From Escherichia coli phage Wa28: a stretch of 64,000 nucleotides of DNA. Within the stretch, counting starts at the first letter, position 1, and the number at the start of each line of letters is the position of its first letter. The stretch is from the sequence record LC788710.1, one strand, 5' to 3'. The notes below the pieces were generated by a model, which saw only the letters and a program-made list of their open reading frames with translations, was not told the origin of the DNA and made no database searches. The position numbers and the translations under genes are program-made. Of this stretch, positions 8,099 through 22,217 are shown one piece after another.

Positions 8099-8467
8099 TT
8101 ACATCGCCTGAGTAAATGTACGACTAATAACGTCGTTCTGTTGTTCACGCGTCAATGCGTTAAATCGAACAGCATAGCCAGAGACACGGATGGTCAACTG
8201 AGGATATTTTTCAGGATGTTTCTGTGCATCCAAAAGCTGATCACGGCTTAACACATTGACATTTAGGTGCTGACCACCCTCGACTTGAGGAACCACTTCC
8301 ACATCTACAATGCGAAAGGCCTCAGGGTCAAAGTGAGGTGTGATACCTTCTAGATCTTCGACTAGAACTTTCTGTTTAAGTTCACCATCTTTAGAATATA
8401 GTTGAATGATCTGATTGTTATGAACAATGTTAATTACGCCAGACTTAAGACTTTGATATGCTTTCAT
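8099..8467 (-). CDS. autonomous glycyl radical cofactor (GrcA/YfiD-like)
   Basis: 122 aa; C-terminal [12 protein letters not shown]...[31 protein letters not shown] closely resembles the GrcA/pyruvate formate-lyase glycyl radical domain. Confidence 0.8.
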
Positions 8468-8832: not shown

Positions 8833-8908
8833 TGGTAGTTAGTAGTGGATTTGAACCACTGTAGTCGCTCCGTATGAAGGAGGTGCATAACCACTCTGCC
8901 AACTAACT
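8833..8908 (-). tRNA. tRNA-Met (anticodon CAT), manual call
   Basis: GTTCAAATCC T-arm, perfect 7-bp acceptor stem, encoded CCA, anticodon loop TTCATAC. Confidence 0.6.
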
Positions 8909-8914
8909 ATAATT

Positions 8915-8990
8915 TGGTACTCCGACTTGGGATCGAACCAAGATTTGACGATTATCGGTCGCCTGTTCTAACCGTTTGAACTATCGGAGC
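8915..8990 (-). tRNA. tRNA-Ile (anticodon GAT), manual call
   Basis: GGTTCGATCC T-arm, acceptor pairing, CCA end, anticodon loop CCGATAA. Confidence 0.6.
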
Positions 8991-8991
8991 A

Positions 8992-9285
8992 TTACATCAT
9001 TTCGTCTAAGTAAGAAGTATACTGGTATTTAGCTTCTCCAGTTTTATCTACTTCGACTTCTGTTCTAGGTACTTTTCGTACCAGACCGTGAATCATCTTG
9101 TACTGAATAGACTTAGATGGTTCGTGATCTTTTGGAAATACTTGTTTAACCGTTACTACTTTGAAGCCTTCACGAGGTGTTAGCACAACAACTTGATCAC
9201 CTTCTTTTATTTTCCAAGACTCAGGAAATTCGTAAGTGTAGCGTTGACCACCCGTTTGGAACACGACAGAAAGATAACGTTTCAT
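8992..9285 (-). CDS. hypothetical protein
   Basis: ORF track 97 aa; promoter module upstream. Confidence 0.5.
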   Translation of the reverse strand: MKRYLSVVFQTGGQRYTYEFPESWKIKEGDQVVVLTPREGFKVVTVKQVFPKDHEPSKSIQYKMIHGLVRKVPRTEVEVDKTGEAKYQYTSYLDEMM

Positions 9286-9315
9286 TTGGTTTCCCTCTCA
9301 TTAATTTATGTAAAT

Positions 9316-9344
9316 ATTATAACAAGAAATAAGAGAGAAGGCAA
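9316..9344 (-). promoter_or_regulatory. early promoter (-35 TTGCCT, -10 TATAAT)
   Basis: Conserved promoter module, reverse complement. Confidence 0.6.
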
Positions 9345-9359
9345 ATGAATTTTTAAATT

Positions 9360-9434
9360 TGGTGCTCCCACCAGGAATCGAACCCGGTTCAGATGCTTAC
9401 AAGGCAACTGCATCGCCAGCAATGCTTTAGGAGC
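9360..9434 (-). tRNA. tRNA-Thr (anticodon TGT), manual call
   Basis: GGTTCGATTCC T-arm, acceptor pairing with one G-U, CCA end. Confidence 0.55.
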
Positions 9435-9601
9435 AATAAACCCGTTATTTCAACGGAATTTCTTTTTCAAATACAGGAGACTTATCAGACATTACTGTCA
9501 TAGCCAACTGCTGTAGAAATTCGAATGAGAGTTTTAAACGTTCTTCACCCAACTCAACCTCAACACACTTCATTTGCTTATCAACCTTTAGCTTTAGATT
9601 A

Positions 9602-9823
9602 TCAGCCCTCTTCGGGTTCTCTTTGCTCAGCTATTGCTAGCCAGTCTGGTAAAAGAAACTTAGTACGAAATTCTTCATATGTTTCTTCTGGATGAAAGCT
9701 ATAGCCTTGCTTTTCATCATTTAATAAAACCGAACCGTCTTCCTGTTCATAAGCTCGGTATGTTTCACCAATAATTAAAACTCGTCTATTGGGGTTTTTA
9801 TTACGAAACTCAAAAACGTCCAT
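9602..9823 (-). CDS. hypothetical small protein
   Basis: ORF track 73 aa. Confidence 0.4.
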   Translation of the reverse strand: MDVFEFRNKNPNRRVLIIGETYRAYEQEDGSVLLNDEKQGYSFHPEETYEEFRTKFLLPDWLAIAEQREPEEG

Positions 9824-9838
9824 AACGTTTCCTTAAGT

Positions 9839-9913
9839 TGGTGCGGGATACGAGAGTCGAACTCGTGTCTACTGGTTGGAAGCCAGTTATTCTAGCCACT
9901 GAACTAATCACGC
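9839..9913 (-). tRNA. tRNA-Gly (anticodon TCC), manual call
   Basis: GAGTTCGACTC T-arm, CCA end, anticodon loop CTTCCAA. Confidence 0.55.
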
Positions 9914-9919
9914 ATAAAT

Positions 9920-9995
9920 TGGCTGGAGAAGGAGGAATCGAACCTACCATTAACGGAGTCAAAGGCCGTTGTGCTAACCGTTACACTACTCTCCA
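9920..9995 (-). tRNA. tRNA-Gln (anticodon TTG), manual call
   Basis: U1-A72 and discriminator G as in bacterial tRNA-Gln; loop CTTTGAC. Confidence 0.55.
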
Positions 9996-10001
9996 AGTAT
10001 T

Positions 10002-10077
10002 TGGCTGGGATGCCACGGATCGAACGTGGAACCTTCGGAGTCAGAGGCCGACGATCTGCCAATTGATCTACATCCCA
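10002..10077 (-). tRNA. tRNA-Gln (anticodon CTG), manual call
   Basis: U1-A72, discriminator G, loop CTCTGAC. Confidence 0.55.
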
Positions 10078-10084
10078 ATAATTT

Positions 10085-10285
10085 TTATTCTACAGGAACC
10101 GTGGCAATTGGATCTGGTTCTTCTAGACGTTTACCATTATGGTCAACACGAATAATACCACAACCTTCACAGATTACAACAGCACCATAGCCTTCTTTAA
10201 CTTCGGCTTCTGTAATCAGACCAGAAAGATCACCAGTATCTTTGCCCCACATATCGATAGAGCATTCTTTGCAGAAATCAGCCAT
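10085..10285 (-). CDS. hypothetical Cys-rich small protein
   Basis: 66 aa; CKEC...CEGC. Confidence 0.4.
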   Translation of the reverse strand: MADFCKECSIDMWGKDTGDLSGLITEAEVKEGYGAVVICEGCGIIRVDHNGKRLEEPDPIATVPVE

Positions 10286-10309
10286 ATTTTAGTTCCTGTA
10301 TAAGTTAAT

Positions 10310-10384
10310 TGGTGCATCCTCAGGGAATCGAACCCCGATCGTAAAGTTCGTAGCTTTACATTCTTTCCGTTGAAATAAGGACGC
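10310..10384 (-). tRNA. tRNA-Arg (anticodon ACG), manual call
   Basis: GGTTCGATTCCC T-arm, anticodon stem-loop GTAAAG-CTACGAA-CTTTAC. Confidence 0.55.
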
Positions 10385-10389
10385 ATATT

Positions 10390-10465
10390 TGGGGTGGCTA
10401 GTGGAATTCGAATCCACATAGGCCTGATTCACAATCAGGATCATTAACCAATTATGATATAGCCA
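10390..10465 (-). tRNA. tRNA-His (anticodon GTG), manual call
   Basis: Discriminator C, loop TTGTGAA, GGATTCGAATTCC T-arm. Confidence 0.6.
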
Positions 10466-10469
10466 CAAT

Positions 10470-10847
10470 TGAATACTATTAGGGGATGATCAGTCCTCCA
10501 TTTGGCCGTCTAAGGTACCAAAGTTAGTCATTCTGCGCACAGGTTTTTCTCCTGATTCTTTATTGCGAATGCTCTCTAATAATACTCAATTGTGGCGGCT
10601 CTCCGAAACTCTTCTACTCTAGCCTTAGCAGCTTACTCCCGAACGCATGTCGGGAAAGTCTTACTAAGAACATCAAATAGCACCGTTACACTTTGAGCCA
10701 TTAATGTATCAAGAAGCAGAAGGACTTGAACCTTCACGAGATAGACCATTTATCTCAGCCTCGTTTTCGGGTATCTTATGAGGAGTGGATGTTCCCCTTA
10801 CGCCCTTTAGGAAGCCCCGTCTACCGATTCCGGCATACTTCAAGATT
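10470..10847 (-). other. ORF-free segment inside tRNA cluster with T-arm-like motif; candidate degenerate tRNAs or small RNAs
   Basis: No ORF of 60 aa or more on the transcribed strand; GAAGGTTCAAGTCCTTC motif (reverse complement near 10720) without an obvious acceptor partner. Confidence 0.3.
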
Positions 10848-10937
10848 TGGCAGAAGATAATGGAGTCGAACCATCACCGTATCACTACAGCGGGCCGGTT
10901 TTCAAGACCGGTTACGTACCACTACGTCCTATCTTCT
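10848..10937 (-). tRNA. tRNA-Ser (anticodon TGA), class II, manual call
   Basis: Long variable arm, anticodon stem-loop CCGGT-CTTGAAA-ACCGG, CCA end. Confidence 0.55.
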
Positions 10938-11164
10938 AGTATTTGTTCTACTTCTTTTCGAAGATCTTCTGGATTATCATGATAGGTTGTTTGCCATACA
11001 TAAATAACTCCAGTATCACATGCTTTATCAAATATTTCTCGCTCAGGAAGTTTCATGCCCATTGCGTACTTGATATGAAACTCTAAAGCTTGCTTACTAG
11101 GGAATGTATGACGCAAGAAAAACTTATCATTAACTAAATCCAACATCATAATCTTGACTTTCAT
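10922..11164 (-). CDS. hypothetical protein
   Basis: ORF track 80 aa; 3' end overlaps the called tRNA 5' end. Confidence 0.4.
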   Translation of the reverse strand: MKVKIMMLDLVNDKFFLRHTFPSKQALEFHIKYAMGMKLPEREIFDKACDTGVIYVWQTTYHDNPEDLRKEVEQILEDRT

Positions 11165-11185
11165 TTATATTCCCTATTAGTTGTT

Positions 11186-11278
11186 TGGCGGAAGAAGAGA
11201 GATTCGAACTCTCAAGCCTGCTTTAACAAGTCAGCCACTTTCCAAGCGGTTTTCGTCACCTAATCGATTTGCTCTTCC
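11186..11278 (-). tRNA. tRNA-Ser (anticodon GGA?), class II, manual call
   Basis: GAGTTCGAATCTC T-arm, long variable region, loop TTGGAAA. Confidence 0.45.
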
Positions 11279-11452
11279 GTAGATCTCAGGATTAAATCAT
11301 AAACTTCATTAGCAGATACTGGAAGTATGAGATTATACATCTTTTGGTCATACCTCTGACCATACTCTATAAACACATACTCTTTAGTTAATGTATTAAC
11401 AGCTAACCAGATATCAGTTATAGGAGTTTTCATCATGAGTTAATCCAATGTT

Positions 11453-11533
11453 TGGTAGGGATGGAGGGACTCGAACCCACACCCGAAGACTAGAACCTAA
11501 ATCTAGCGCGTCTGCCAATTTCGCCACATCCCC
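11453..11533 (-). tRNA. tRNA-Leu (anticodon TAG), manual call
   Basis: Anticodon stem-loop CTAGA-TTTAGGT-TCTAG, extended variable arm, CCA end. Confidence 0.55.
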
Positions 11534-11540
11534 ATTTTAT

Positions 11541-11759
11541 TTAGTTAGAAATAAATAGTAACCCTGCAACAATGGAACCTATGCCACTGAATACCATTAT
11601 CAGCATAGCTTCTAAGCTGATAAAGCGGACGTTATATGGAGCGCCCCAAGAATAATCAGTAAAGAAAGTTTTCTTTTCTTTAGCTAAATCTTTAATAGTT
11701 CTAAAATAGATAGCTAGTGCTAAAGCTACAAGAACTACAGAGGCTGCTAAGAATACCAT
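11541..11759 (-). CDS. small membrane protein
   Basis: 72 aa, two hydrophobic helices. Confidence 0.45.
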   Translation of the reverse strand: MVFLAASVVLVALALAIYFRTIKDLAKEKKTFFTDYSWGAPYNVRFISLEAMLIMVFSGIGSIVAGLLFISN

Positions 11760-11778
11760 ATTATTTCCTTAATTTGTT

Positions 11779-11854
11779 TGGTGGAGTCACTCAGAATTGA
11801 ACTGAGTTCCACTGCTTGCAAGGCAGTAAGTTTAACCAAATAACCTATGACCCC
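11779..11854 (-). tRNA. tRNA-Ala (anticodon TGC), manual call
   Basis: G3-U70 pair, anticodon stem-loop ACTGC-CTTGCAA-GCAGT, CCA end. Confidence 0.6.
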
Positions 11855-11859
11855 GAATT

Positions 11860-11938
11860 TGGTGGAGAATAAGAGATTCGAACTCTTCTGATATCCTCGG
11901 TGCAAGCGAGGTGTCCACTCCAAGCAGACCCATTCCCC
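11860..11938 (-). tRNA. second tRNA-Ala-like gene (anticodon TGC), slightly longer, manual call
   Basis: G3-U70, anticodon stem-loop CCTCG-CTTGCAC-CGAGG; D-arm not resolved. Confidence 0.45.
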
Positions 11939-12200
11939 AAAATCTTTAAGTTTACTAAGGCTATTAGCTCGGTGTGCGTATTACCCTCAGACATTAGCCA
12001 GTAGAGGATAACCGCTCTTCACAAACCCGATACACTATTCAGTTGCCGCTGAATCTAGTGGACTAATCTAGAACTTATTGCAAAGTATCCCCCGCCATTA
12101 AGGGTCTACTTGCAATTGTGCTTTTTGGCAGCCAGTCCTAGGTCGAGCTAATACCTTAGTGAACTTTGATGAGGATTTCTCCTCATCAATTTATATAAAT

Positions 12201-12229
12201 ATTATAACAAGAAATTAAGCATCAAGCAA
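12201..12229 (-). promoter_or_regulatory. early promoter (-35 TTGCTT, -10 TATAAT) driving downstream noncoding leader and tRNAs
   Basis: Conserved module; overlaps stop of upstream ORF. Confidence 0.6.
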
Positions 12230-12581
12230 GTACATTTTTAGCGATTTCTTGTATTTCCTTAACGTCACTAACGAAAAGGTAATCAGAGCTTCCAGAGTGC
12301 ATACTCTGCATAACCACACCATCCTCTGGTGCATCTTCTTTCAAAGTAATACCTAACCAGAACTCGGCAAAACTAGGTGTTACCTCACCTTGACTTGCCT
12401 TGAATACATCGGCTTCTGTGATCTCCTGACCAGTAGAGAGTCCCATGTACGGTACGTTCAGATCAATATCTTTGTAAAACTCAGCTAGATCTTGTTCGAA
12501 GTCCCAACCTTTAGAGATAGCGAACTCCATTGTTACATGACCGAAATAGCCTTGAACCTTGCTTGATAATTGCATTTGCAA
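12222..12581 (-). CDS. hypothetical protein
   Basis: ORF track 119 aa. Confidence 0.5.
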   Translation of the reverse strand: MQMQLSSKVQGYFGHVTMEFAISKGWDFEQDLAEFYKDIDLNVPYMGLSTGQEITEADVFKASQGEVTPSFAEFWLGITLKEDAPEDGVVMQSMHSGSSDYLFVSDVKEIQEIAKNVLA

Positions 12582-12600
12582 TTCCTTATTTTGAGTTAAT

Positions 12601-12674
12601 TGGTACTCGGTGATAGAATCGAACTATCGCAACCGCCGTGTAAAGACGGGGTTCTCCCATTAAACTAACCGAGC
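12601..12674 (-). tRNA. tRNA with atypical anticodon arm (identity undetermined), manual call
   Basis: T-arm GTTCGATTC and acceptor pairing present; anticodon hairpin CCGT-CTTTAC-ACGG appears to have a 6-nt loop. Confidence 0.4.
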
Positions 12675-12678
12675 AATT

Positions 12679-12756
12679 TGGTGGATTGCCTGGGATTCGA
12701 ACCCAGAACTGACGGATTAAAGGTCCGCTACTCTTATCCGGTTGAGCTAGCAATCC
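12679..12756 (-). tRNA. tRNA-Lys (anticodon TTT?), manual call
   Basis: GGGTTCGAATCCC T-arm, loop CCTTTAA (C at position 33 is unusual). Confidence 0.5.
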
Positions 12757-13220
12757 AATTTTTCTACTAATAATTTAAAAGCATCTAGTACAGGTACTTC
12801 AAACCATTCCCCGGATACTCTGTAGTCTTTGAGAAGATTATGTAACTCTTTCTCCGTACGTCTTTTATCTGACGAAAATCTGAAATGGTGTAGCTTGTAG
12901 TCTCTATTAGGTGAATAGGTTTGATAACTTGCTAACCTCTCATTTACATCTATAGTCATACCTATTTTATACATGCCTGGCCATGCGGGATTACCGATTA
13001 CATATACAAAACCTTCCGTTATAGGTATTTTATGTTCTCTTTTGTATTTTAAGAGATTTAAAGCTGCCATTCGATAACAGAATTTAAATTCTGAAGTTTT
13101 TAACTTACCCTCTTTACCAGAAATTTCATTATATTTGCTCATATAAGCTCTTATAAGCTTATCATCTATAATAAAATTATCAGGAAGGTTTAAGGCAGCT
13201 AAAACTTTATTAATTAGCAT
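12747..13220 (-). CDS. T5orf172-domain protein (GIY-YIG-like putative homing endonuclease)
   Basis: 157 aa; motif FVYVIGNPAWPGMYKIGMTIDVNERLASYQ. Confidence 0.6.
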   Translation of the reverse strand: MLINKVLAALNLPDNFIIDDKLIRAYMSKYNEISGKEGKLKTSEFKFCYRMAALNLLKYKREHKIPITEGFVYVIGNPAWPGMYKIGMTIDVNERLASYQTYSPNRDYKLHHFRFSSDKRRTEKELHNLLKDYRVSGEWFEVPVLDAFKLLVEKLDC

Positions 13221-13374
13221 AAACTTCCTTAATAGAGTAGACTTTCAAGTAAGGATGATTAATACCAAATTCCGCCATTACTTCATTTTCATCTTTACCA
13301 TAATGGGCTAGTGGATACTTCTTACGATCTTTACTAGAACGTAAATCACTTACTTTTAAACGAAATAATTTCAT
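13210..13374 (-). CDS. small ORF (54 aa) missed by ORF track
   Basis: ATG at 13372-13374 with AAGGA SD; ends overlapping start of downstream gene. Confidence 0.35.
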   Translation of the reverse strand: MKLFRLKVSDLRSSKDRKKYPLAHYGKDENEVMAEFGINHPYLKVYSIKEVYAN

Positions 13375-13395
13375 TTCGAAATCCTTCTATTAAAT

Positions 13396-13472
13396 TGGAA
13401 GCGGGTGCAGGAATCGAACCTACCTCTTTCTAGCTTATGAGACTAGCGATCTCTACCAGAGATCTAACCCGC
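13396..13472 (-). tRNA. tRNA with CAT anticodon (Met/fMet candidate), manual call
   Basis: Loop CTCATAA; apparent mismatch at acceptor pair 1:72, which suggests initiator-like. Confidence 0.5.
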
Positions 13473-13479
13473 AATTGTT

Positions 13480-13557
13480 TGGTCTCCGTGGGAGGATTTG
13501 AACCCCCGACCCTATCGCCCCAAACGAAACGCTCTAGCCAAACTGAGCTACACGGAG
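13480..13557 (-). tRNA. tRNA-Pro (anticodon TGG), manual call
   Basis: GGGGGTTCAAATCCTCC T-arm, loop TTTGGGG, CCA end. Confidence 0.55.
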
Positions 13558-13589
13558 AATATTCTTTGTTAACTCACTTTATAAAATAT

Positions 13590-13618
13590 ATTATACAGAG
13601 AATTAAGCTAAATAGCAA
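13590..13618 (-). promoter_or_regulatory. early promoter (-35 TTGCTA, -10 TATAAT) upstream of tRNA-Pro and the CAT tRNA
   Basis: Conserved module. Confidence 0.6.
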
Positions 13619-13872
13619 CTACATTTTTTAATAAATTTACTTATTGCGTAGGCCACCTGGAGGGTTCAAGCCCCACGGCTGACAAAGAAGTTTGCGAGAC
13701 TTCTCTTAAACGCCAGAATAGACCCGCCGATCTATCGGAACCTACTCAATAAGTAAACTTTCGTTTACCTACACCTACCTGGTCGGGAGGATTTTCAGCG
13801 ACTAGAACCGGCCGGAAACTCATCGCCTTGTTTATCTAGGAGTCCGTTCTCTAGGAAGCAGAAACCTAAATT

Positions 13873-13946
13873 TGGTGCGGTCGGAGGGAATCGAACCCTC
13901 AACTTCTGGTTGGCAACCAAAAATTATACCTTTTAACTACGAACGC
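13873..13946 (-). tRNA. tRNA-Gly (anticodon GCC), manual call
   Basis: GAGGGTTCGATTCCCTC T-arm, loop TTGCCAA. Confidence 0.55.
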
Positions 13947-14159
13947 ATAATAAGTCAATCTAGGCAGGACTTGAACCTGCTATCACTTGTGCGGATTTAC
14001 GAGAACCATTCTTTCACTCGAATCGAACGAGCTTCTACCCTCGGCAAGCTGGTGTCCCCTCTCCACCACGCTAGAATGATAATTAGTGCCTGCTCCTTTG
14101 AATCAAGAAGTCCACCCCGGACTTTGGGTCTTTGCAGTACATCACGCTGCTCTGATGTT
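13947..14159 (-). other. ORF-free segment with two T-arm-like motifs; candidate degenerate tRNAs or small RNAs
   Basis: GCAGGTTCAAGTCCTGC and CTCGTTCGATTCGAG (reverse complement) without clean acceptor partners. Confidence 0.3.
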
Positions 14160-14236
14160 TGGTACACCCACTAGGACTTGAACCTAGAACCTACCGCTTA
14201 AGAGGCGGTAGCTCTAACCAATTGAGCTATGGATGT
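14160..14236 (-). tRNA. tRNA-Lys (anticodon CTT?), manual call
   Basis: CTAGGTTCAAGTCCTAG T-arm, anticodon stem-loop ACCGC-CTCTTAA-GCGGT. Confidence 0.5.
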
Positions 14237-14242
14237 ATAATT

Positions 14243-14317
14243 TGGCGGTACTAAGGGTAATCGAAACCCTACCTCTCCCGTGACAGGGGAGTATCCTAAC
14301 CGTTAGACTATAGTACC
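14243..14317 (-). tRNA. tRNA-Asp (anticodon GTC), manual call
   Basis: Discriminator G, anticodon stem-loop CTCCC-CTGTCAC-GGGAG. Confidence 0.6.
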
Positions 14318-14889
14318 TTTAACTTTTTAAGTTCTTTAGGATTGCCTCCTAAAGAAGTGTATCTTTTACGCAACCCATTATCTGAATAACTTAACTTTCT
14401 CCCTGCACCTGACCAGCCTAGCTCTCTTACTGTAACCTCGATTATTTCTTTAGTTATAGAGATATCTTTTGGTTTATGTGAAGAGCACTCCTGACATTTT
14501 TCAGCTTTTAAAGAAATAGCTTTACCACAATCCTTACAACAATTATCATGGTTTAGTTTACTAAATCCTTTATCTTTTAAAGTCTTTTCTAGATGCTGCT
14601 CTTTTGTGAGCACTTGTAAGTTATTAAGACCCCAATAAGTAATGTCTGTGTTAATATGGTCAACTTCTAGTTCAGAGTCTAGACTTGGTAATTTCTTAAA
14701 TGCACATGCTAAAATCCTATGTACACCGGTATTTCTCTGTTGACCATTTTTATGGAGACGTATAGATAAGTATCCGTAATTACTGGTTATTTGGGTTAGT
14801 ATTTTGTTTGATTTGATACTAAATACTAACCCATCCAAACTTACTAAGTACTCCTCAAACCCTGGAATGGGTAAGGATATTCCGTGCAT
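14308..14889 (-). CDS. HNH homing endonuclease
   Basis: 193 aa; GYLSIRL...VHRILACAF...EVDHINTDITYWGLNNLQVLT, C-terminal Cys cluster. Confidence 0.65.
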   Translation of the reverse strand: MHGISLPIPGFEEYLVSLDGLVFSIKSNKILTQITSNYGYLSIRLHKNGQQRNTGVHRILACAFKKLPSLDSELEVDHINTDITYWGLNNLQVLTKEQHLEKTLKDKGFSKLNHDNCCKDCGKAISLKAEKCQECSSHKPKDISITKEIIEVTVRELGWSGAGRKLSYSDNGLRKRYTSLGGNPKELKKLKVL

Positions 14890-14892
14890 AAT

Positions 14893-15078
14893 TTACTCAG
14901 TTTTGAGTTTTTCGATAGCTTCCTCAACCTCTTTTAGAGCTTCACGACGCTCTACTTGACCTTGAAGTTCTTCAAGAAGTTCAGCTTTCAGAGCCTTAAT
15001 AATATTACCACGAACCTTAATATTATTAATCAGATTATCACGATCAGCTTCTAGTCGAGCAATTGCACGAGTTGTCAT
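14893..15078 (-). CDS. small coiled-coil protein
   Basis: ORF track 61 aa. Confidence 0.4.
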   Translation of the reverse strand: MTTRAIARLEADRDNLINNIKVRGNIIKALKAELLEELQGQVERREALKEVEEAIEKLKTE

Positions 15079-15181
15079 ATCTATTTCCTCAGTTGTTAAT
15101 GAAAAATGGTATCTGTGACTGAATTCGATATCAGCAATGATAGCTGGTTGGCTACCGGTTTACTTAACTCTACACAGAATA

Positions 15182-15264
15182 TGGCGGGCCGTGTAGGATT
15201 CGAACCTACGTTGTCTTTCGACATGGATTAACAGTCCACCGCCAAACCGCTTGGCTAACGACCC
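15182..15264 (-). tRNA. tRNA, anticodon read as GTT (Asn?) but with long variable region; manual call
   Basis: Perfect T-arm GTAGGTTCGAATCCTAC, acceptor pairing, CCA end, loop CTGTTAA, 13-nt variable region. Confidence 0.45.
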
Positions 15265-15271
15265 TAAAATT

Positions 15272-15347
15272 TGGACGACCGCATGAGATTCGAACTCACA
15301 TAAGGAGGTTTTGCAGGCCTCCGCCTAAGCCATTCAGCCAACGGTCG
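15272..15347 (-). tRNA. tRNA-Cys (anticodon GCA), manual call
   Basis: Anticodon stem-loop GGAGG-(C)CTGCAAA(A)-CCTCC; GAGTTCGAATCTC T-arm. Confidence 0.5.
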
Positions 15348-15525
15348 ATTTATCTTGCTTTTCGAGATTAGTAAACTCTAGATCTTTAGAATGTCCTATA
15401 GATCTAGCATAATAGCCATCTCCAGCATCGTAGCCTGATTTACCGCACTCACACATCTTAAACTCTCTATAATGAGTGAAAATATGTTCAGAACCACAAC
15501 ACTTAAATTTAACTAACATTTTCAT
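15334..15525 (-). CDS. small Cys-rich protein
   Basis: 63 aa; CCGSEH...CECGKSGYD. Confidence 0.4.
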   Translation of the reverse strand: MKMLVKFKCCGSEHIFTHYREFKMCECGKSGYDAGDGYYARSIGHSKDLEFTNLEKQDKSTVG

Positions 15526-15764
15526 TTAACACGCTCCGGTAAATCTTCGAGTTTATATTGAGTAGCCACATTAGCAGCATCTAGTAACAAACCCATATGT
15601 TTAAGAATCCTAGTGATAGCCTCGCCTTCTGCTTCTTCTACAAAAGTGCGTAGTTGAATGAAGTCAATACCCCCATCCATACCAGAGAAAATGTTTAGTA
15701 AGCGAAGCATTACCAGCTTACGTTCTTTCAATTCTTGTTCTGTCATGTTGCTTCTCCAGTTCAA
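15522..15764 (-). CDS. hypothetical protein
   Basis: ORF track 80 aa; promoter module upstream. Confidence 0.45.
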   Translation of the reverse strand: MNWRSNMTEQELKERKLVMLRLLNIFSGMDGGIDFIQLRTFVEEAEGEAITRILKHMGLLLDAANVATQYKLEDLPERVK

Positions 15765-15775
15765 TTTATGTAATA

Positions 15776-15804
15776 ATTATACAGAACTTTAAGCGGTTAA
15801 GCAA
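15776..15804 (-). promoter_or_regulatory. early promoter (-35 TTGCTT, -10 TATAAT)
   Basis: Conserved module. Confidence 0.6.
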
Positions 15805-16075
15805 CTACATTTTTTAAGAATTTGATGCCTTTCTTTTTCTTCTTATATTTCCACGTTAACGGGTTCTGTCGATTATGAACGCTTGAGATCTTTGTCTCGT
15901 CAAAGTTCTTCAAAACCATGTAATCACAGGCCAACTGTTCTAGTGGGATGTGATCTCCATCAAAAGCATAAACATAAGGCTGTTGACTAGCACGATAATG
16001 ATAGACTTTGTTAATTCTGCGTTTCAGTGACTTATCCGCACAGTAAATAAAGAAGTTTTCAGGATGCATCAGCAT
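15797..16075 (-). CDS. hypothetical protein
   Basis: ORF track 92 aa. Confidence 0.4.
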   Translation of the reverse strand: MLMHPENFFIYCADKSLKRRINKVYHYRASQQPYVYAFDGDHIPLEQLACDYMVLKNFDETKISSVHNRQNPLTWKYKKKKKGIKFLKNVVA

Positions 16076-16086
16076 CTCCTTAAAAT

Positions 16087-16161
16087 TGGTGCACCCTGTT
16101 CGTATCGAACGAACCTCTCAAGCTCTTCAGGCAAGCGCTAATCCATCTCAGCTAAAGGTGC
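16087..16161 (-). tRNA. tRNA, anticodon not resolved by eye
   Basis: GTTCGTATCGAAC T-arm with 5-bp stem, acceptor pairing, CCA end. Confidence 0.4.
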
Positions 16162-16167
16162 AAATAT

Positions 16168-16243
16168 TGGCAAACCTACTAGGACTCGAACCTAGACCGT
16201 ACGGTTTTGGAGACCGACATGCTGTCCAGTAACACTCTAGGAA
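16168..16243 (-). tRNA. tRNA-Trp (anticodon CCA?), manual call
   Basis: CTAGGTTCGAGTCCTAG T-arm, loop CTCCAAA; acceptor has 2 mismatches. Confidence 0.4.
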
Positions 16244-16252
16244 TGCAGAAAT

Positions 16253-16329
16253 TGGCGTCCTGTGCGGGGATCGAACCCGCAAACCCCACCTTGAAAGGGT
16301 GGTGACTTTACCAGTTTGTCTAACAGGAC
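16253..16329 (-). tRNA. tRNA-Glu (anticodon TTC), manual call
   Basis: Discriminator G, anticodon stem-loop CCACC-CTTTCAA-GGTGG, GCGGGTTCGATCCCCGC T-arm. Confidence 0.6.
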
Positions 16330-16811
16330 TTAAATTGTTTATTGGATAGATTGTTAAACTCGGAAAGTATGTCGTCTACACTTCTGTCTAACACTACCCA
16401 TTCATTAAGCCGTTCAGGAAAGCTATTATGAAGCATTTTCTCCGCTTCTCTAGCATTAAACCAAAATGACCAATGTATTAACTTATAATCACGTAAGGGA
16501 GAATAAGTTTGGTAATTTCCTAATCTTGTTTTAGGATCAGAAGACATACCAATTTTTACATAGTTATCCCACGCTGGGTTAGTTATTGCATAAATAAAAC
16601 CACAGCTGGATTTTTCTCCAATACTTTTGTTATACTTGATAAAAGATAGGGCAGATAACTTCAAGCTATATCGACGATTACTATCGCGACCAAAGTTAGC
16701 TGTACCAAATGTGAGGCTTTCTAATATTAGATCTTTGTTTATATCGGCGGGTGAACCCAACTGTATAATACCTCTATTTGCAGCTTCTTGAATTATCCGA
16801 TCAATATACAT
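16320..16811 (-). CDS. T5orf172-domain protein (GIY-YIG-like), paralog of 12747-13220
   Basis: 163 aa; GFIYAITNPAWDNYVKIGMSSDPKTRLGNYQTYSP. Confidence 0.6.
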   Translation of the reverse strand: MYIDRIIQEAANRGIIQLGSPADINKDLILESLTFGTANFGRDSNRRYSLKLSALSFIKYNKSIGEKSSCGFIYAITNPAWDNYVKIGMSSDPKTRLGNYQTYSPLRDYKLIHWSFWFNAREAEKMLHNSFPERLNEWVVLDRSVDDILSEFNNLSNKQFKSC

Positions 16812-16829
16812 ATCCTTTACCTTTAATTT

Positions 16830-16917
16830 GGTGGGCGTTAATGGAGTCGAACCACTCGAGTCGCAATGACCAGGGATTTACAATCCCCTCCGCTACCACT
16901 TACGGAATAAACGCCCA
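16830..16917 (-). tRNA. tRNA-Tyr (anticodon GTA), class II, manual call
   Basis: Anticodon stem-loop GGGGA-TTGTAAA-TCCCT, long variable arm, CCA end. Confidence 0.6.
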
Positions 16918-17045
16918 TATTTAGAAGTATTCAAATACTTGTTTAAACACTTTTAAATATGTTTTCCAAATTAGATATCTATTATATCAAGTTTTGAAGG
17001 ACTGAGCAAGTCAAATTTTAAAGAACTTGCTCAGTGCTACATCAG

Positions 17046-17321
17046 TTACTCGAAGCTAGGAGTGACGCTCAGTTTGAATGGAAGCTCGAACACTTCTTCA
17101 TAATCATCATTGAGCGTAATTACACGACCTTCTAGCTTAGTCATGGTGATTTCGATATCAGCCCTTGCATCAGGAGCCATACCAGCTTCCACACATTTAG
17201 CTTTAACTTCCGGCAGAAGTTCTACGTCGTAGAAATAAAGCCATTCAATCTCACCTTCCCAGCCACCCCAGGATTTACAAACAGCACTTTCAACACCAGT
17301 TGCAGTAACACGTTTTGACAT
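17046..17321 (-). CDS. hypothetical protein
   Basis: ORF track 91 aa; promoter upstream. Confidence 0.45.
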   Translation of the reverse strand: MSKRVTATGVESAVCKSWGGWEGEIEWLYFYDVELLPEVKAKCVEAGMAPDARADIEITMTKLEGRVITLNDDYEEVFELPFKLSVTPSFE

Positions 17322-17351
17322 TCGTTAACTCCTTCATCAATTTATATAACT

Positions 17352-17381
17352 ATTATAACAGAAATCTTAAGTAAAAAGCAA
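17352..17381 (-). promoter_or_regulatory. early promoter (-35 TTGCTT, -10 TATAAT)
   Basis: Conserved module. Confidence 0.6.
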
Positions 17382-17411
17382 GTACATTTTTAAAATTTCT
17401 GCTTGGAGGAG

Positions 17412-17684
17412 TTAAACTCCTGATTCTTCAGCCAGATCAAGCCCAACCAACGTGATTGCCATAATAGCCGCGCCATGTTCTTTCTCCCCTAGCTCTTTGG
17501 CTTGAGCGAGAATATTGAGGAATTGCTTTTGAAAATCTGCAACTTCTTCTGTCATGCCTGCTTCAGCAATAATTCCTTTAAGCATAAAGCGTTGTGCCGT
17601 AATTTCAGGATTAGCCATTTGTTTTCTCCAGTTATTTAGAATGTAAGCCAAACTTAGGATCATAGCGATCGTAAGTCGTACCAT
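17412..17684 (-). CDS. hypothetical protein
   Basis: ORF track 90 aa. Confidence 0.45.
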   Translation of the reverse strand: MVRLTIAMILSLAYILNNWRKQMANPEITAQRFMLKGIIAEAGMTEEVADFQKQFLNILAQAKELGEKEHGAAIMAITLVGLDLAEESGV

Positions 17685-17769
17685 TAGTTGAAGCCTTAAT
17701 GCTATGGAAACGACAGTACATAAATTTACGTAGTGCTTTCTTAATAGCTTTCATTTTATTTCCTTAATT

Positions 17770-17846
17770 TGGTAGGGGTGGTGGGATTCGAACCCACAAA
17801 ACCTGAATTTTAAGTCCAGTACCTATGCCAATTCGATTACACCCCC
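17770..17846 (-). tRNA. tRNA with anticodon read as TAA but class I length (Leu-UAA? or misread Phe); manual call
   Basis: GTGGGTTCGAATCCCAC T-arm, anticodon stem-loop CTGGA-CTTAAAA-TTCAG, CCA end. Confidence 0.45.
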
Positions 17847-17854
17847 ATGTAATC

Positions 17855-18208
17855 TTAGCGAATCTCTAAACCCTGGAAATATCGAGGGAATGGAGAGCCA
17901 ACTTCAAAATTGATGCCCCAATTAAGTTCAACGAGTTCAGATTTATTAAGATCTAGGCCATTACCTTCAAAGATATAGCCGTAAACCGCAGGAAACATAG
18001 CTGCTAGATCTTCCATATCGGAATGAGCATTGTGTTCTTCACGGAACTGCTCAAACTCTTCAAAGAACTTTTCTAGGAAGAACTCAGGTACGATGAACGT
18101 TACCACATCAGTAGAATCATCGGTACGATACACCGTAGCTTGGAACAAGCCAACACCTAAAAGGTTTATTGCCGGAGTAGTAAAAATATCCATCTTAGCC
18201 TCGCTCAA
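17855..18208 (-). CDS. hypothetical acidic protein
   Basis: ORF track 117 aa. Confidence 0.45.
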   Translation of the reverse strand: MSEAKMDIFTTPAINLLGVGLFQATVYRTDDSTDVVTFIVPEFFLEKFFEEFEQFREEHNAHSDMEDLAAMFPAVYGYIFEGNGLDLNKSELVELNWGINFEVGSPFPRYFQGLEIR

Positions 18209-18380
18209 TGTCTAGACAAATTGCATATTCAGGGTTGATACCAGTACCTTTACATGTAGGACATTCCCATTCTCTACAGAAAATACCCCCCGGTTCTGCA
18301 TCATCCTGCCTACCACCACCATGACAGTCCTTACACCGACATTCTTCTAATGCTTTCTTCATTTCATAGAATCTAGACAT
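18195..18380 (-). CDS. small zinc-ribbon-like protein
   Basis: 61 aa; CKDCHGGG...CPTCKG. Confidence 0.4.
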   Translation of the reverse strand: MSRFYEMKKALEECRCKDCHGGGRQDDAEPGGIFCREWECPTCKGTGINPEYAICLDIERG

Positions 18381-18397
18381 ATAGTCTCCTGGTTAAT

Positions 18398-18475
18398 TGG
18401 TGGCTCCCGGAGGATTCGAACCTACCTACCTTTCGCTTATGAGGCGACGGCTCATACCAAATGAGCTTGAGAACC
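18398..18475 (-). tRNA. tRNA with CAT anticodon (Met or Ile2/lysidine candidate), manual call
   Basis: D-arm GCTC-ATTTGGTAT-GAGC, loop CTCATAA, acceptor GGTTCTC/GGGAGCC with G-U pairs. Confidence 0.5.
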
Positions 18476-18480
18476 AAATT

Positions 18481-18574
18481 TGGAGGAAGATGCCAGACTC
18501 GAACTGGCACACCGTGTCTCCACAGCTACTGGCTGTTTAGCAAACAGCTCCCTTACCTTTAGGGTTAATCTTCC
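18481..18574 (-). tRNA. tRNA-Ser (anticodon GCT), class II, manual call
   Basis: Anticodon stem-loop GCTGT-TTGCTAA-ACAGC, long variable arm, CCA end. Confidence 0.55.
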
Positions 18575-18588
18575 GAATTTATGAATAT

Positions 18589-18617
18589 ATTATACAGAAA
18601 ATTTCGGCATTAAGCAA
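18589..18617 (-). promoter_or_regulatory. early promoter immediately upstream of tRNA-Ser(GCT)
   Basis: Conserved module (-35 TTGCTT, -10 TATAAT). Confidence 0.6.
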
Positions 18618-18625
18618 GTGAAATT

Positions 18626-18922
18626 TTACTGAACACTGCACTGATACACTTGTTTGATACGTGTCACTGACTTCTTAGTTGGATTGATAGAAGAACCTTG
18701 CCACCAACGTGACTCTGAGCTAAGAACAGCGCCAGGAACAGCCTGCTCTTTTGGCAGAACAATATCAAAACACTGTTCACCCATATTATCTTTAATGTGT
18801 GACCAAATATCCAAAGTAAATCGTTCTAACTTATTACAAACCTGAACTTGACAAAGTTCCTGTTGCGGAGCAGCAAATACAGAAGTAGATACTAGAGCCA
18901 ATGCAAGTACAATGCGTTTCAT
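18626..18922 (-). CDS. secreted Cys-containing protein (signal peptide)
   Basis: 98 aa; MKRIVLALALVSTSVFAAP. Confidence 0.5.
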   Translation of the reverse strand: MKRIVLALALVSTSVFAAPQQELCQVQVCNKLERFTLDIWSHIKDNMGEQCFDIVLPKEQAVPGAVLSSESRWWQGSSINPTKKSVTRIKQVYQCSVQ

Positions 18923-18952
18923 GTTTGATTCCTCTCTCGAATTTATAAATAT

Positions 18953-18981
18953 ATTATACAGAAATTTTCTATATTAAGCAA
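18953..18981 (-). promoter_or_regulatory. early promoter
   Basis: Conserved module. Confidence 0.6.
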
Positions 18982-19028
18982 GTGAAAATTTCTGTATAAT
19001 AGCCCTCGCTTAGAGGGCTATAACTACT

Positions 19029-20781: not shown

Positions 20782-20793
20782 ATTTATAAATAT

Positions 20794-20822
20794 ATTATAC
20801 AGAGAATTTAGCGTTCAAGCAA
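20794..20822 (-). promoter_or_regulatory. early promoter upstream of NadR-like gene
   Basis: Conserved module. Confidence 0.6.
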
Positions 20823-20969
20823 TCGAATTTTTAAACTTTTTAGTGGAAAAATCTCAAGGCATTTAGTGGTAGCACGTTGTTGCTACAATAATAGTATATG
20901 ATTCTAAAGAATTAAAGAATTAAATACTAAAGACCTTAGTTGAATAACTTATGGGCTTTTCTTTTGCCT

Positions 20970-21009
20970 TAAATACAGAAAAGCCCGCGCTCTCGGAGGA
21001 AACGCGGGC
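20970..21009 (-). terminator. rho-independent terminator (tandem hairpins)
   Basis: GCCCGCG...CGCGGGC hairpin followed on minus strand by TTTTCTGTATTT. Confidence 0.55.
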
Positions 21010-21034
21010 TTGGTTCGAAGATTACGTGTAACTA

Positions 21035-21979: not shown

Positions 21980-21990
21980 ATATTTCCTTA

Positions 21991-22191: not shown

Positions 22192-22217
22192 TTTATTTTC
22201 CTAGCAGTTAATAAAAT

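What the first reader, a model, noticed from the sequence alone, without database searches (positions are those of the whole stretch)
8833..18574. Three separate tRNA genes with a CAT anticodon
Manual folding gives CAT-anticodon tRNAs at 8833-8908, 13396-13472 (with an apparent 1:72 mismatch, initiator-like) and 18398-18475. A plausible reading is that the phage supplies initiator tRNA-fMet, elongator tRNA-Met and a lysidine-dependent tRNA-Ile2. That would mean the phage depends on or manipulates host TilS and formyltransferase.
Basis: inference. Interest (0 to 1): 0.45.

Follow-up and report, generated by a model that had tools for sequence, protein, structure and literature searches.

The report
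T5-type phage Met, fMet, Ile2 tRNAs
The three CAT-anticodon tRNA genes are real and are the known elongator tRNA-Met, initiator-like tRNA-fMet and AUA-reading tRNA-Ile2 of phage T5 and its relatives, so the finding is correct but ordinary.

Summary
ARAGORN and Rfam both call CAT-anticodon tRNAs on the minus strand at 8833-8908 (A), 13396-13473 (B) and 18398-18475 (C). They lie in a 29-tRNA cluster of a T5-like phage (Epseptimavirus, 98% identical to E. coli phage Shin27).

T5's curated record has the same three genes in the same positions. A equals T5 tRNA-Met and B equals T5 'initiator tRNA fMet', both at 100% identity. C is a variant of T5 tRNA-Ile2 with compensatory stem changes.

Identity elements agree with these labels:
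- A carries U4-A69, A5-U68 and C30-G40, like E. coli tRNA-Met.
- B has an unpaired U1·U72, G2-C71, C3-G70, G4-C69, A11-U24 and G30-C40.
- C has C5-G68, an invariant C29-G41, a non-paired 27·43 and A73, and it matches T4's tRNA-Ile(CAU) anticodon stem.

Two textbook features are missing. B has one G-C pair where initiators have three. C has U4-A69 where E. coli TilS prefers C4-G69.

No TilS or Fmt homologue occurs in the window or in any T5-like genome, so dependence on the host enzymes is inferred. Nothing suggests manipulation. AUA is about 1.8 times more frequent here than in E. coli. Verdict: already known, low interest.

The parts
8833..8908 (-). tRNA A: elongator tRNA-Met(CAU), 76 nt including the templated CCA. 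Its anticodon loop is UUCAUAC and its discriminator is A73.
   Evidence: ARAGORN and Rfam at 51.5 bits both call it. It is 100% identical to T5 tRNAM(CAU) T5t01 and sits next to tRNA-Ile(GAU) as in T5. It has A1-U72, U4-A69, A5-U68 and C30-G40. It is closest to E. coli tRNA-Met: 35/60 structural positions, against 27 for fMet and 28 for Ile2.
13396..13473 (-). tRNA B: initiator-type tRNA-fMet(CAU), 78 nt. It has a U1·U72 mismatch, a U73 discriminator, an extended D stem, and the anticodon stem CUAGU/GCUAG.
   Evidence: ARAGORN and Rfam at 43.6 bits both call it. It is 100% identical to T5 tRNAfM(CAU) T5t14, annotated 'initiator tRNA fMet', and sits next to tRNA-Pro(UGG) as in T5. The MFE fold is a cloverleaf with positions 1 and 72 unpaired, z = -2.9. 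Its acceptor stem plus position 73 matches E. coli fMet at 10/15, against 4 for Met and 6 for Ile2.
18398..18475 (-). tRNA C: tRNA-Ile2(CAU), the presumed lysidine-dependent AUA decoder, 78 nt. It has A8, a non-paired G27·A43, and a T stem with a bulged U.
   Evidence: ARAGORN and Rfam at 40.0 bits both call it. It is the syntenic orthologue of T5 tRNAI2(CAU) T5t23, next to tRNA-Ser(GCU). C29-G41 is invariant in 11/11 variants while 28:42, 30:40 and 31:39 covary. The bulged T-stem model pairs 98.2% of cells, against 70.9% for the standard stem. It shares G27·A43, U28-A42 and C29-G41 with T4 tRNA-Ile(CAU).
8915..8990 (-). tRNA-Ile(GAU), the AUU/AUC decoder. Together with C it completes phage-encoded reading of the Ile codon box.
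   Evidence: ARAGORN and Rfam at 58.9 bits call it. T5 annotates the syntenic gene as tRNAI1(GAU).
8833..18574 (-). Main tRNA gene cluster of the T5-like phage. It holds 28 of the 29 tRNA genes, interleaved with small ORFs and homing-endonuclease-type ORFs. The 29th gene, tRNA-Arg(UCU), lies at 22218-22292.
   Evidence: The tRNA calls are. The region is 98% identical to Shin27 and collinear with T5, IrmaTschudi and DaisyDussoix. The interleaved ORFs carry T5orf172/MUG113 and HNH_3/NUMOD4 domains. All 29 genes template CCA.

Best explanation
The window comes from a T5-like siphovirus (Demerecviridae, Epseptimavirus). Its three CAT-anticodon genes are the lineage's known trio.

A (8833-8908) is an elongator tRNA-Met. 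Host MetRS charges it through the CAU anticodon and A73. Its U4-A69 and A5-U68 pairs keep it away from TilS.

B (13396-13473) is an initiator-type tRNA. Its unpaired U1·U72, together with G2-C71, C3-G70 and G4-C69, is the signature that host methionyl-tRNA formyltransferase reads. The same mismatch disfavours use of a tRNA as an elongator. Its G30-C40 pair is the one anticodon-stem pair shown to be essential for P-site initiation in E. coli.

C (18398-18475) is a tRNA-Ile2. Its C34 must be converted to lysidine by host TilS. After that, IleRS charges it and it reads AUA. IleRS determinants C29-G41, U12-A23, A37, A38 and A73 are present.

With tRNA-Ile(GAU), the phage therefore supplies every decoder of the AUN box. 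This fits its higher use of AUA, and fits keeping translation going while the host genome is degraded.

Shown here: the genes, their folds, their orthology to the T5 genes, the determinant patterns and their conservation, the absence of phage TilS and Fmt, and the AUA usage. Inferred: charging, formylation, lysidine formation, and actual use in initiation.
For: - Two independent predictors call all three genes.
- T5's curated record names the syntenic genes tRNA-Met, 'initiator tRNA fMet' and tRNA-Ile2(CAU). A and B are 100% identical to the T5 genes, and C is a compensated variant.
- E. coli K-12 reference tRNAs were fetched with their annotation. Over 60 fixed structural positions, A is nearest Met (35, against 27 and 28), B is nearest fMet (40, against 33 and 35) and C is nearest Ile2 (41, against 37 and 31). 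C's relatives are clearer: BIS47 scores 47 against 41, and PM135 scores 50 against 37.
- B family, 20 distinct variants: 1:72 is UU in 14, UA in 2, CU in 2 and UC in 2, and is never G-C. G2-C71, C3-G70 and G30-C40 occur in 20/20, G4-C69 in 19/20 and A11-U24 in 16/20. Some members have a full three G-C stem.
- The formyltransferase determinants are the unpaired 1-72 pair plus A73, G2-C71, C3-G70 and G4-C69 (PMC9976931). A11-T24 discriminates fMet (PMC1635315).
- Only G30-C40 is essential for initiator function, and an au/GC/gu initiator sustains E. coli (PMC5389676).
- C family, 11 variants: C29-G41 and C5-G68 are invariant, 27·43 is unpaired in 10/11, and three stem pairs covary.
- TilS and TmcA determinants come from PMC2500205. 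T4 tRNA-Ile(CAU) has the same upper anticodon stem as C.
- Lysidine has been found on a phage-encoded tRNA(CAU) (PMC13191261). T4-like phages all carry a predicted tRNA-Ile(CAU) (PMC1524935).
- No TilS or Fmt homologue occurs in the window or in any Demerecviridae record.
- AUA occurs at 8.9 per 1000 codons in the window's ORFs, against 4.9 per 1000 in E. coli (PMC12514573).
Against: - B lacks the three consecutive G-C pairs. It has A29-U41 / G30-C40 / U31·G39, and its 31:39 wobble is in the opposite orientation to the tested au/GC/gu mutant.
- B has U73 rather than A73, and U12-A23 rather than the G12-C23 that Silva et al. list as an fMet discriminator.
- B is missing from some T5-like phages such as HildyBeyeler, so it is dispensable.
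- C has U4-A69, which is a negative determinant for E. coli TilS when it occurs in tRNA-Met. It also has U3·G70, A8 and a bulged T stem. ARAGORN fails to call the T5-type copy.
- C's overall similarity to Ile2 is only slightly higher than to Met (41 against 37 of 60).
- A has U3-A70 instead of the usual C3-G70, and needs a bulged C to form C27-G43.
- Nearly all database records label all three genes plain tRNA-Met.
- No experiment on charging or modification was available to me.
Confidence: 0.8

Rival explanations
1. All three genes are ordinary tRNA-Met isoacceptors that simply raise the supply of AUG decoders, as almost every deposited annotation states.
For: Shin27, IrmaTschudi, KpGranit and most other records label them all tRNA-Met. 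An unmodified tRNA-Ile(CAU) is charged with Met and reads AUG (PMC1635315).
Against: Those labels come from anticodon-only callers. The three sequences are very different from one another. Each one tracks a different host class at the known determinant positions. A 1:72 mismatch conserved across 20 variants and an invariant C29-G41 amid covarying neighbours are not expected of redundant elongator Met genes. Under this reading the phage, which uses AUA 1.8 times more than its host, would carry no AUA decoder, although it carries tRNAs for every amino acid.
Confidence: 0.05
2. B is initiator-derived, but its role is not routine initiation. It may be a replacement initiator that escapes host nucleases such as enteric VapC, or that tolerates relaxed IF3 proofreading. 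Alternatively it may be a decaying, poorly functional copy.
For: The first and third G-C pairs are replaced in most T5-like copies, and position 39, next to the A38 side of the loop, is G rather than C in 15/20 variants. Phage tRNAs have been proposed to evade anticodon nucleases, with VapC-LT2 named as targeting tRNA-fMet (PMC10264068). From my own knowledge, not checked here because the paper is not held, enteric VapC cuts the initiator at the 38/39 junction. B is absent from HildyBeyeler.
Against: Related copies on two T5-like contigs, L015 and L031, keep three and two G-C pairs respectively, so loss of those pairs is not universal in the lineage. The retained G30-C40 is sufficient for initiation in E. 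coli. The sequence is 99-100% conserved in about 200 genomes, which argues against decay. VapC's recognition rules are unknown.
Confidence: 0.15
3. C is not an efficient substrate of the E. coli or Salmonella TilS because of U4-A69. It therefore acts largely as a second elongator tRNA-Met, or as a mixed Met/Ile species.
For: E. coli TilS uses C4-G69 and C5-G68 as dominant positive elements, and U4-A69 and A5-U68 are negative elements in tRNA-Met (PMC2500205; PMC12514573). All 8 T5-like and Sugarlandvirus variants have U4-A69.
Against: C keeps C5-G68 in 11/11 variants. It also keeps the IleRS determinant C29-G41 in 11/11, and a non-Watson-Crick 27·43 that blocks the Met-specific TmcA enzyme. 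Homologues of the same odd tRNA in Mydovirus phages have the full C4-G69/C5-G68 pair. T5's curated record calls it Ile2 and notes that its amber-suppressor derivative is active, like tRNA-Ile1 and unlike tRNA-Met. EcTilS is very efficient, so a partial substrate may still be modified.
Confidence: 0.12

Closest known systems
Phage T5 tRNA genes T5t01 (tRNA-Met), T5t14 (initiator tRNA-fMet) and T5t23 (tRNA-Ile2 CAU), in NC_005859
   Same: The gene order and neighbours are the same: Met next to Ile-GAU, fMet next to Pro-UGG, Ile2 next to Ser-GCU. A and B are 100% identical to the T5 genes. C has the same acceptor stem, D arm, loops and T arm.
   Different: C differs from the T5 copy at three anticodon-stem pairs (28:42, 30:40, 31:39), at 27, at position 26 and at the closing T-stem pair. 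The paired positions are compensated. The window's version is the Epseptimavirus allele, found at 100% identity in other Salmonella and E. coli phages.
Phage T4 tRNA-Ile (CAU anticodon) and the tRNA-Ile(CAU) of T4-like phages
   Same: It is a phage-encoded CAU tRNA read as Ile after lysidine formation by the host enzyme. It has the same G27·A43, U28-A42 and C29-G41 upper anticodon stem and the same CUCAUAA loop.
   Different: T4's copy has the full C4-G69/C5-G68 TilS signature, U8, a normal T stem and no templated CCA. The window's C has U4-A69, A8, a bulged T stem and a templated CCA.
E. coli initiator tRNA-fMet (metZWV / metY)
   Same: It shares the CAU anticodon, the CUCAUAA loop, no Watson-Crick 1:72 pair, G2-C71, C3-G70, G4-C69, G5-C68, G6-C67, A11-U24 and G30-C40.
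   Different: B has U1·U72 where the host has C1·A72, U73 where the host has A73, and U12-A23 where the host has G12-C23. Its anticodon stem is A-U / G-C / U·G instead of three G-C pairs, and its D stem is extended with a small loop.
E. coli tRNA-Ile2 (ileX) and elongator tRNA-Met (metT/U)
   Same: C shares C5-G68, U12-A23, C29-G41, G30-C40, a non-Watson-Crick 27·43 and A73 with ileX. A shares U4-A69, A5-U68, C30-G40 and A73 with metT.
   Different: C has U3·G70 and U4-A69 where ileX has C3-G70 and C4-G69. A has A1-U72, U3-A70 and the loop UUCAUAC where metT has G1-C72, C3-G70 and CUCAUAA.

Membership tests
Bacterial initiator tRNA-fMet (gene B, 13396-13473) | CAU anticodon in a 7-nt loop, CUCAUAA | tested here: met
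Bacterial initiator tRNA-fMet (gene B, 13396-13473) | No Watson-Crick pair at 1:72. This is the major formyltransferase determinant, and the 1:72 mismatch also disfavours use as an elongator. | tested here: met
   B has U1·U72, and both bases are unpaired in the MFE fold. Across 20 family variants the pair is UU, CU, UC or UA, and is never G-C. The determinant is defined in PMC9976931.
Bacterial initiator tRNA-fMet (gene B, 13396-13473) | Minor formyltransferase determinants G2-C71, C3-G70, G4-C69 and A73 | tested here: inconclusive
   The three base pairs are present, in 20/20, 20/20 and 19/20 family variants. The discriminator is U73, not A73; across the family it is U in 14 variants and A in 6.
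Bacterial initiator tRNA-fMet (gene B, 13396-13473) | A11-U24 and G12-C23 in the D stem (Silva et al. 2006 discriminators) | tested here: inconclusive
   A11-U24 is present, in 16/20 family variants. 12:23 is U-A in the window copy, and G-C in 6/20 variants.
Bacterial initiator tRNA-fMet (gene B, 13396-13473) | Three consecutive G-C pairs at 29-31:39-41 | tested here: not met
   B has A29-U41, G30-C40 and U31·G39. Only the middle pair is kept, and that pair is the one shown to be essential (PMC5389676). Two related T5-like contigs keep three (L015) or two (L031) G-C pairs.
Bacterial initiator tRNA-fMet (gene B, 13396-13473) | Formylation of Met-tRNA and use in P-site initiation | not testable with these tools
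   This needs biochemistry or genetics.
tRNA-Ile2 (CAU to lysidine-AU) (gene C, 18398-18475) | CAU anticodon with A37 and A38, and orthology to a gene curated as tRNA-Ile2 | tested here: met
   The loop is CUCAUAA. It is the syntenic orthologue of T5 tRNAI2(CAU).
tRNA-Ile2 (CAU to lysidine-AU) (gene C, 18398-18475) | E. coli TilS positive determinants C4-G69 and C5-G68 | tested here: inconclusive
   C5-G68 is present in 11/11 variants. 4:69 is U-A in the window and in all 8 T5-like and Sugarlandvirus variants, and C-G only in the 3 Mydovirus homologues. The rule comes from PMC2500205.
tRNA-Ile2 (CAU to lysidine-AU) (gene C, 18398-18475) | IleRS determinants C29-G41, U12-A23 and A73 | tested here: met
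   All three are present and invariant in 11/11 variants, while neighbouring pairs covary.
tRNA-Ile2 (CAU to lysidine-AU) (gene C, 18398-18475) | Non-Watson-Crick 27·43, the negative determinant for the Met-specific acetyltransferase TmcA | tested here: met
   The window copy has G27·A43. The pair is unpaired in 10/11 variants.
tRNA-Ile2 (CAU to lysidine-AU) (gene C, 18398-18475) | Lysidine at position 34 and charging with Ile | not testable with these tools
   This needs mass spectrometry or an aminoacylation assay. There is precedent for a phage tRNA(CAU) carrying k2C34 (PMC13191261).
Elongator tRNA-Met (gene A, 8833-8908) | CAU anticodon, A73 and a Watson-Crick 1:72 pair | tested here: met
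   A has A1-U72 and A73. It is 100% identical to T5 tRNAM(CAU).
Elongator tRNA-Met (gene A, 8833-8908) | TilS negative determinants U4-A69 and A5-U68 | tested here: met
   Both are present, as in E. coli metT.
Elongator tRNA-Met (gene A, 8833-8908) | TmcA positive determinants C27-G43 and C30-G40 | tested here: inconclusive
   C30-G40 is present. C27 pairs with a G only if the C after G42 is bulged. The KpGranit and L015 orthologues have a clean C27-G43.
Elongator tRNA-Met (gene A, 8833-8908) | C3-G70, usual in Met and fMet tRNAs (Silva et al. 2006) | tested here: not met
   A has U3-A70.

The most novel reading that the evidence does not exclude
The T5-type initiator (B) is a specialised phage initiator, not just a spare copy. 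By replacing C1·A72 with U1·U72, and the outer two G-C pairs with A-U and U·G (G39 in place of C39), it would keep formylation and the minimal G30-C40 licence for the P site. At the same time it would escape host nucleases that cut tRNA-fMet at the anticodon stem-loop, such as enteric VapC/MvpT, or it would alter IF3 proofreading in favour of phage mRNAs. A parallel idea applies to C: its U4-A69, A8 and bulged T stem could mark a tRNA tuned to avoid a host tRNase while still being lysidinylated.
Probability: 0.12. Interest if true: 0.5.

Novelty: already known. Interest (0 to 1): 0.12.

Why it matters
It matters little as a discovery. T5 has been annotated with exactly these three genes for about two decades, and phage tRNA-Ile(CAU) genes date back to T4.

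It has some practical value. Almost every T5-like genome in the databases labels the Ile2 gene as tRNA-Met, and usually labels the initiator-type gene that way too. Codon-usage and tRNA-complement analyses of these phages therefore miss their AUA decoder.

The determinant tables also raise two small testable questions. One is how well E. coli TilS accepts a tRNA-Ile2 with U4-A69. The other is whether an initiator with U1·U72 and a single G-C pair initiates normally.

Tried and rejected
- I searched E. coli RefSeq genomes for a PGAP-annotated copy of the cluster, to borrow tRNAscan-SE isotype calls. There was no match.
- I looked for Silva et al.'s classified reference sets so I could build class profiles. 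No supplementary files are held. I used determinant tables and fixed-position identity to E. coli references instead.
- I tried to read Winther & Gerdes 2011 for the VapC cleavage site. It is not held, so that point rests on my own knowledge.
- The MAFFT alignment of family B (A3) placed a gap inside the 3' strand of the anticodon stem. I did not run pair counts on it and used a structure-aware parse instead.
- The IMG/VR pattern for B's T arm was not specific: 96 stretches were returned, many of them unrelated tRNA-like 3' ends. I filtered by ARAGORN CAT calls and by acceptor-stem sequence.
- A templated CCA is not an initiator mark here, because all 29 genes template CCA.
- Promoter-like sites in the cluster are not more frequent than in shuffled sequence (24 against 26.5), so I make no expression claim.
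- I considered and rejected a phage-encoded TilS or Fmt. The few 'phage' hits at host-level identity are 2-3 kb unannotated fragments or bacterial contigs.

Full report
**Observation.** ARAGORN finds 29 tRNA genes in the window, all on the minus strand. Three have a CAT anticodon: A at 8833-8908, B at 13396-13473 and C at 18398-18475. Rfam's tRNA model matches each over its full length, at 51.5, 43.6 and 40.0 bits against a gathering score of 29. In the tRNA sense, each gene is a cloverleaf with CAT at positions 34-36 and a templated CCA.

**What the window is.** The tRNA region is 98% identical to E. coli phage Shin27, and 94-97% identical to many Salmonella and Escherichia phages of the genus Epseptimavirus (Demerecviridae, T5-like). 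G+C content is about 40%.

**Comparison with T5.** The curated T5 reference record (NC_005859) has three CAU genes in the same neighbourhoods:
- tRNAM(CAU) sits next to tRNA-Ile1(GAU).
- tRNAfM(CAU), annotated 'initiator tRNA fMet', sits next to tRNA-Pro(UGG).
- tRNAI2(CAU) sits next to tRNA-Ser(GCU).

A and B are 100% identical to the first two. C is a variant of the third, with the same acceptor stem, D arm, loops and T arm but a different anticodon stem. By contrast, Shin27, IrmaTschudi, KpGranit and most other records call all three 'tRNA-Met'. DaisyDussoix calls B 'tRNA-fMet' but still calls C 'tRNA-Met'.

**Conservation.** Sensitive blastn (distant mode) finds A in 551 phage records, B in 398 and C in 505. 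Some T5-like phages lack B: HildyBeyeler has only A and C. More distant Demerecviridae also carry CAT tRNAs. KpGranit (Sugarlandvirus) has three and PM135 (Novosibvirus) has two. A C-type tRNA also occurs in Vequintavirinae Mydovirus phages.

**Reference rules.** I fetched E. coli K-12 metT/U, metZWV and ileX with their annotation. The determinants come from the literature:
- Formyltransferase reads the unpaired 1-72 position, plus A73, G2-C71, C3-G70 and G4-C69 (PMC9976931).
- A11-T24 and G12-C23 discriminate fMet, and C4-G69/C5-G68 are frequent in Ile(CAT) (PMC1635315).
- E. coli TilS reads C4-G69 and C5-G68 positively, and U4-A69 and A5-U68 negatively. TmcA reads C27-G43 and C30-G40 of tRNA-Met, and G27·U43 blocks it (PMC2500205).
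- IleRS determinants include C29-G41, U12-A23 and A73.
- Of the three initiator G-C pairs, only G30-C40 is essential, and an au/GC/gu mutant sustains E. coli (PMC5389676).

**Gene A.** A has A1-U72, G2-C71, U3-A70, U4-A69, A5-U68, A73 and C30-G40, with the loop UUCAUAC. C27 pairs with a G only if one C is bulged, but the KpGranit and L015 orthologues have a clean C27-G43. A therefore matches E. coli tRNA-Met at the positions that keep TilS off and let TmcA on. It is nearest to Met overall: 35 of 60 structural positions, against 27 for fMet and 28 for Ile2.

**Gene B.** B has a U1·U72 mismatch, G2-C71, C3-G70, G4-C69, G5-C68, G6-C67, U73 and A11-U24. Its anticodon stem is C27-G43, U28-A42, A29-U41, G30-C40 and U31·G39, with the loop CUCAUAA.
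- The MFE fold is a cloverleaf that leaves positions 1 and 72 open, with z = -2.9.
- An IMG/VR scan plus ARAGORN gave 20 distinct family members. In these, 1:72 is UU (14), UA (2), CU (2) or UC (2), and never a G-C pair. G2-C71, C3-G70 and G30-C40 occur in 20/20, and G4-C69 in 19/20.
- 29:41 is A-U in 13 and G-C in 7. 31:39 is U·G in 15. Members with three G-C pairs exist (L015, L096).
- B's acceptor stem plus discriminator matches E. coli fMet at 10/15, against 4 for Met and 6 for Ile2.

B is therefore an initiator-lineage tRNA that keeps the formylation signature and the minimal P-site element. It fails the classical three-G-C test, and it has U73 and U12-A23.

**Gene C.** C has G1-C72, G2-C71, U3·G70, U4-A69, C5-G68, U6·G67, C7-G66, A73, A8 and U12-A23. 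Its anticodon stem is G27·A43, U28-A42, C29-G41, G30-C40 and C31-G39, with the loop CUCAUAA.
- Eleven distinct variants were aligned. C29-G41 and C5-G68 are invariant.
- 28:42 is C-G in 6 and U-A in 5. 31:39 is G-C in 5, A-U in 4 and C-G in 2. 30:40 is G-C in 10 and A-U in 1. 27·43 is unpaired in 10/11.
- A T stem with a bulged pyrimidine pairs 98.2% of cells and shows a C-G/G-C swap. The standard stem pairs only 70.9%. The MFE fold gives the same bulge.
- This oddity explains the low Rfam score, and explains why ARAGORN misses the T5-type copy.
- The Mydovirus homologues have the full C4-G69/C5-G68 pair, and PM135's second CAT tRNA closely resembles ileX.
- T4's tRNA-Ile, which has a CAT anticodon, shares G27·A43, U28-A42 and C29-G41 with C.

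C is therefore a tRNA-Ile2. The T5-like copies carry U4-A69, which is a negative element for E. coli TilS when it occurs in tRNA-Met. I could not find data on how much a single 4:69 change costs.

**Dependence on the host.** tblastn with E. coli TilS and Fmt finds nothing in the window (best E-value 0.37) and no Demerecviridae genome among 50,697 phage records. The high-identity enteric hits, at 75-92%, are short unannotated fragments or bacterial contigs. Dependence on host TilS, Fmt, MetRS and IleRS is therefore the natural inference. Nothing indicates manipulation of those enzymes. Lysidine has been detected on a phage-encoded tRNA(CAU) in a vibriophage (PMC13191261), and T4-like phages all carry a predicted lysidine tRNA-Ile (PMC1524935).

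**Why the phage carries them.** AUA makes up 13% of Ile codons in 54 long ORFs of the window, or 8.9 per 1000 codons. E. coli uses AUA at 4.9 per 1000 (PMC12514573). The cluster covers all 20 amino acids. Codon supplementation, and self-sufficiency while the host chromosome is degraded, are the usual explanations. Evasion of host anticodon nucleases is a newer, non-exclusive proposal (PMC10264068). The latter motivates the only moderately novel reading, that B's altered stem protects it from initiator-specific nucleases. I rate that reading as unlikely and untested.

**Verdict.** The residual interest lies in three things: the systematic mislabelling of C as tRNA-Met, and usually of B too, in databases; the atypical features of B (U1·U72 and a single G-C pair); and the atypical features of C (U4-A69, A8 and a bulged T stem).

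Noticed in passing
window 22825-22896 (-): Rfam calls a marginal tRNA here (29.3 bits against a cut-off of 29) that ARAGORN does not call. It has no templated CCA and a poor acceptor stem. It lies about 530 nt upstream of tRNA-Arg(UCU) at 22218-22292. T5 annotates stable tRNA-like RNAs ('RNAX') in the equivalent place. It is probably a tRNA-like RNA or a pseudogene.
   Followed up: partly
window 11860-11938 (-) and 16829-16916 (-): ARAGORN's second tRNA-Ala(UGC), 79 nt, and its tRNA-Tyr(GUA), 88 nt, do not reach Rfam's gathering score. They are atypical phage tRNAs or degenerate copies.
   Followed up: no
window 16320-16811 (-), with 12747-13220 (-) and 14308-14889 (-): These are homing-endonuclease-type ORFs. 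Two carry T5orf172/MUG113 domains and one carries HNH_3/NUMOD4. They sit between tRNA genes, and each ORF's 3' end overlaps the 5' end of the next tRNA gene (Glu, Lys-UUU, Asp) by 10 nt. The 16320-16811 ORF lies in an insertion of about 492 bp between tRNA-Glu and tRNA-Tyr that is absent from the 98%-identical phage Shin27.
   Followed up: partly
window 8833-22292, all 29 tRNA genes: Every tRNA gene templates its 3' CCA and is followed by an A/T-rich spacer. Many genes are only 4-8 nt apart, which suggests polycistronic precursors.
   Followed up: partly
window 18398-18475 (-); L012:5997-6074 (Klebsiella phage BIS47): The unusual C-type tRNA has A8 instead of U8 and a bulged pyrimidine in the T stem. 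It is shared between Demerecviridae siphoviruses and Vequintavirinae (Mydovirus) myoviruses at about 89% identity, which suggests horizontal transfer of this tRNA between unrelated phage families.
   Followed up: partly
window 8099-8467 (-), 19029-19721 (-), 23189-23632 (-): Three auxiliary genes flank the cluster. One is a small glycyl-radical (GrcA-like) protein. One is a PnuC nicotinamide-riboside/NMN transporter. One is a weak YqeY-like ORF that T5 annotates as 'tRNA amidotransferase'.
   Followed up: partly
L011 (Escherichia phage HildyBeyeler) 13001-13078 and the whole locus: This Tequintavirus lacks the initiator-type gene B altogether. ARAGORN also fails to call its T5-type tRNA-Ile2, so automated tRNA counts for T5-like phages can be short by one.
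   Followed up: partly
IMG/VR loci L048, L049, L053, L073, L079, L080, L085, L086, L089, L101, L104 and L107: The T-arm pattern used for B also hit a recurring element in unrelated viral contigs. It is a G+C-rich hairpin followed by a T run, then ...CATGCCATGAATGGA-AGGTAGGTTCGATTCCT(R)CACATGG. It looks like a truncated tRNA or tmRNA 3' end, possibly an attachment-site remnant.
   Followed up: no
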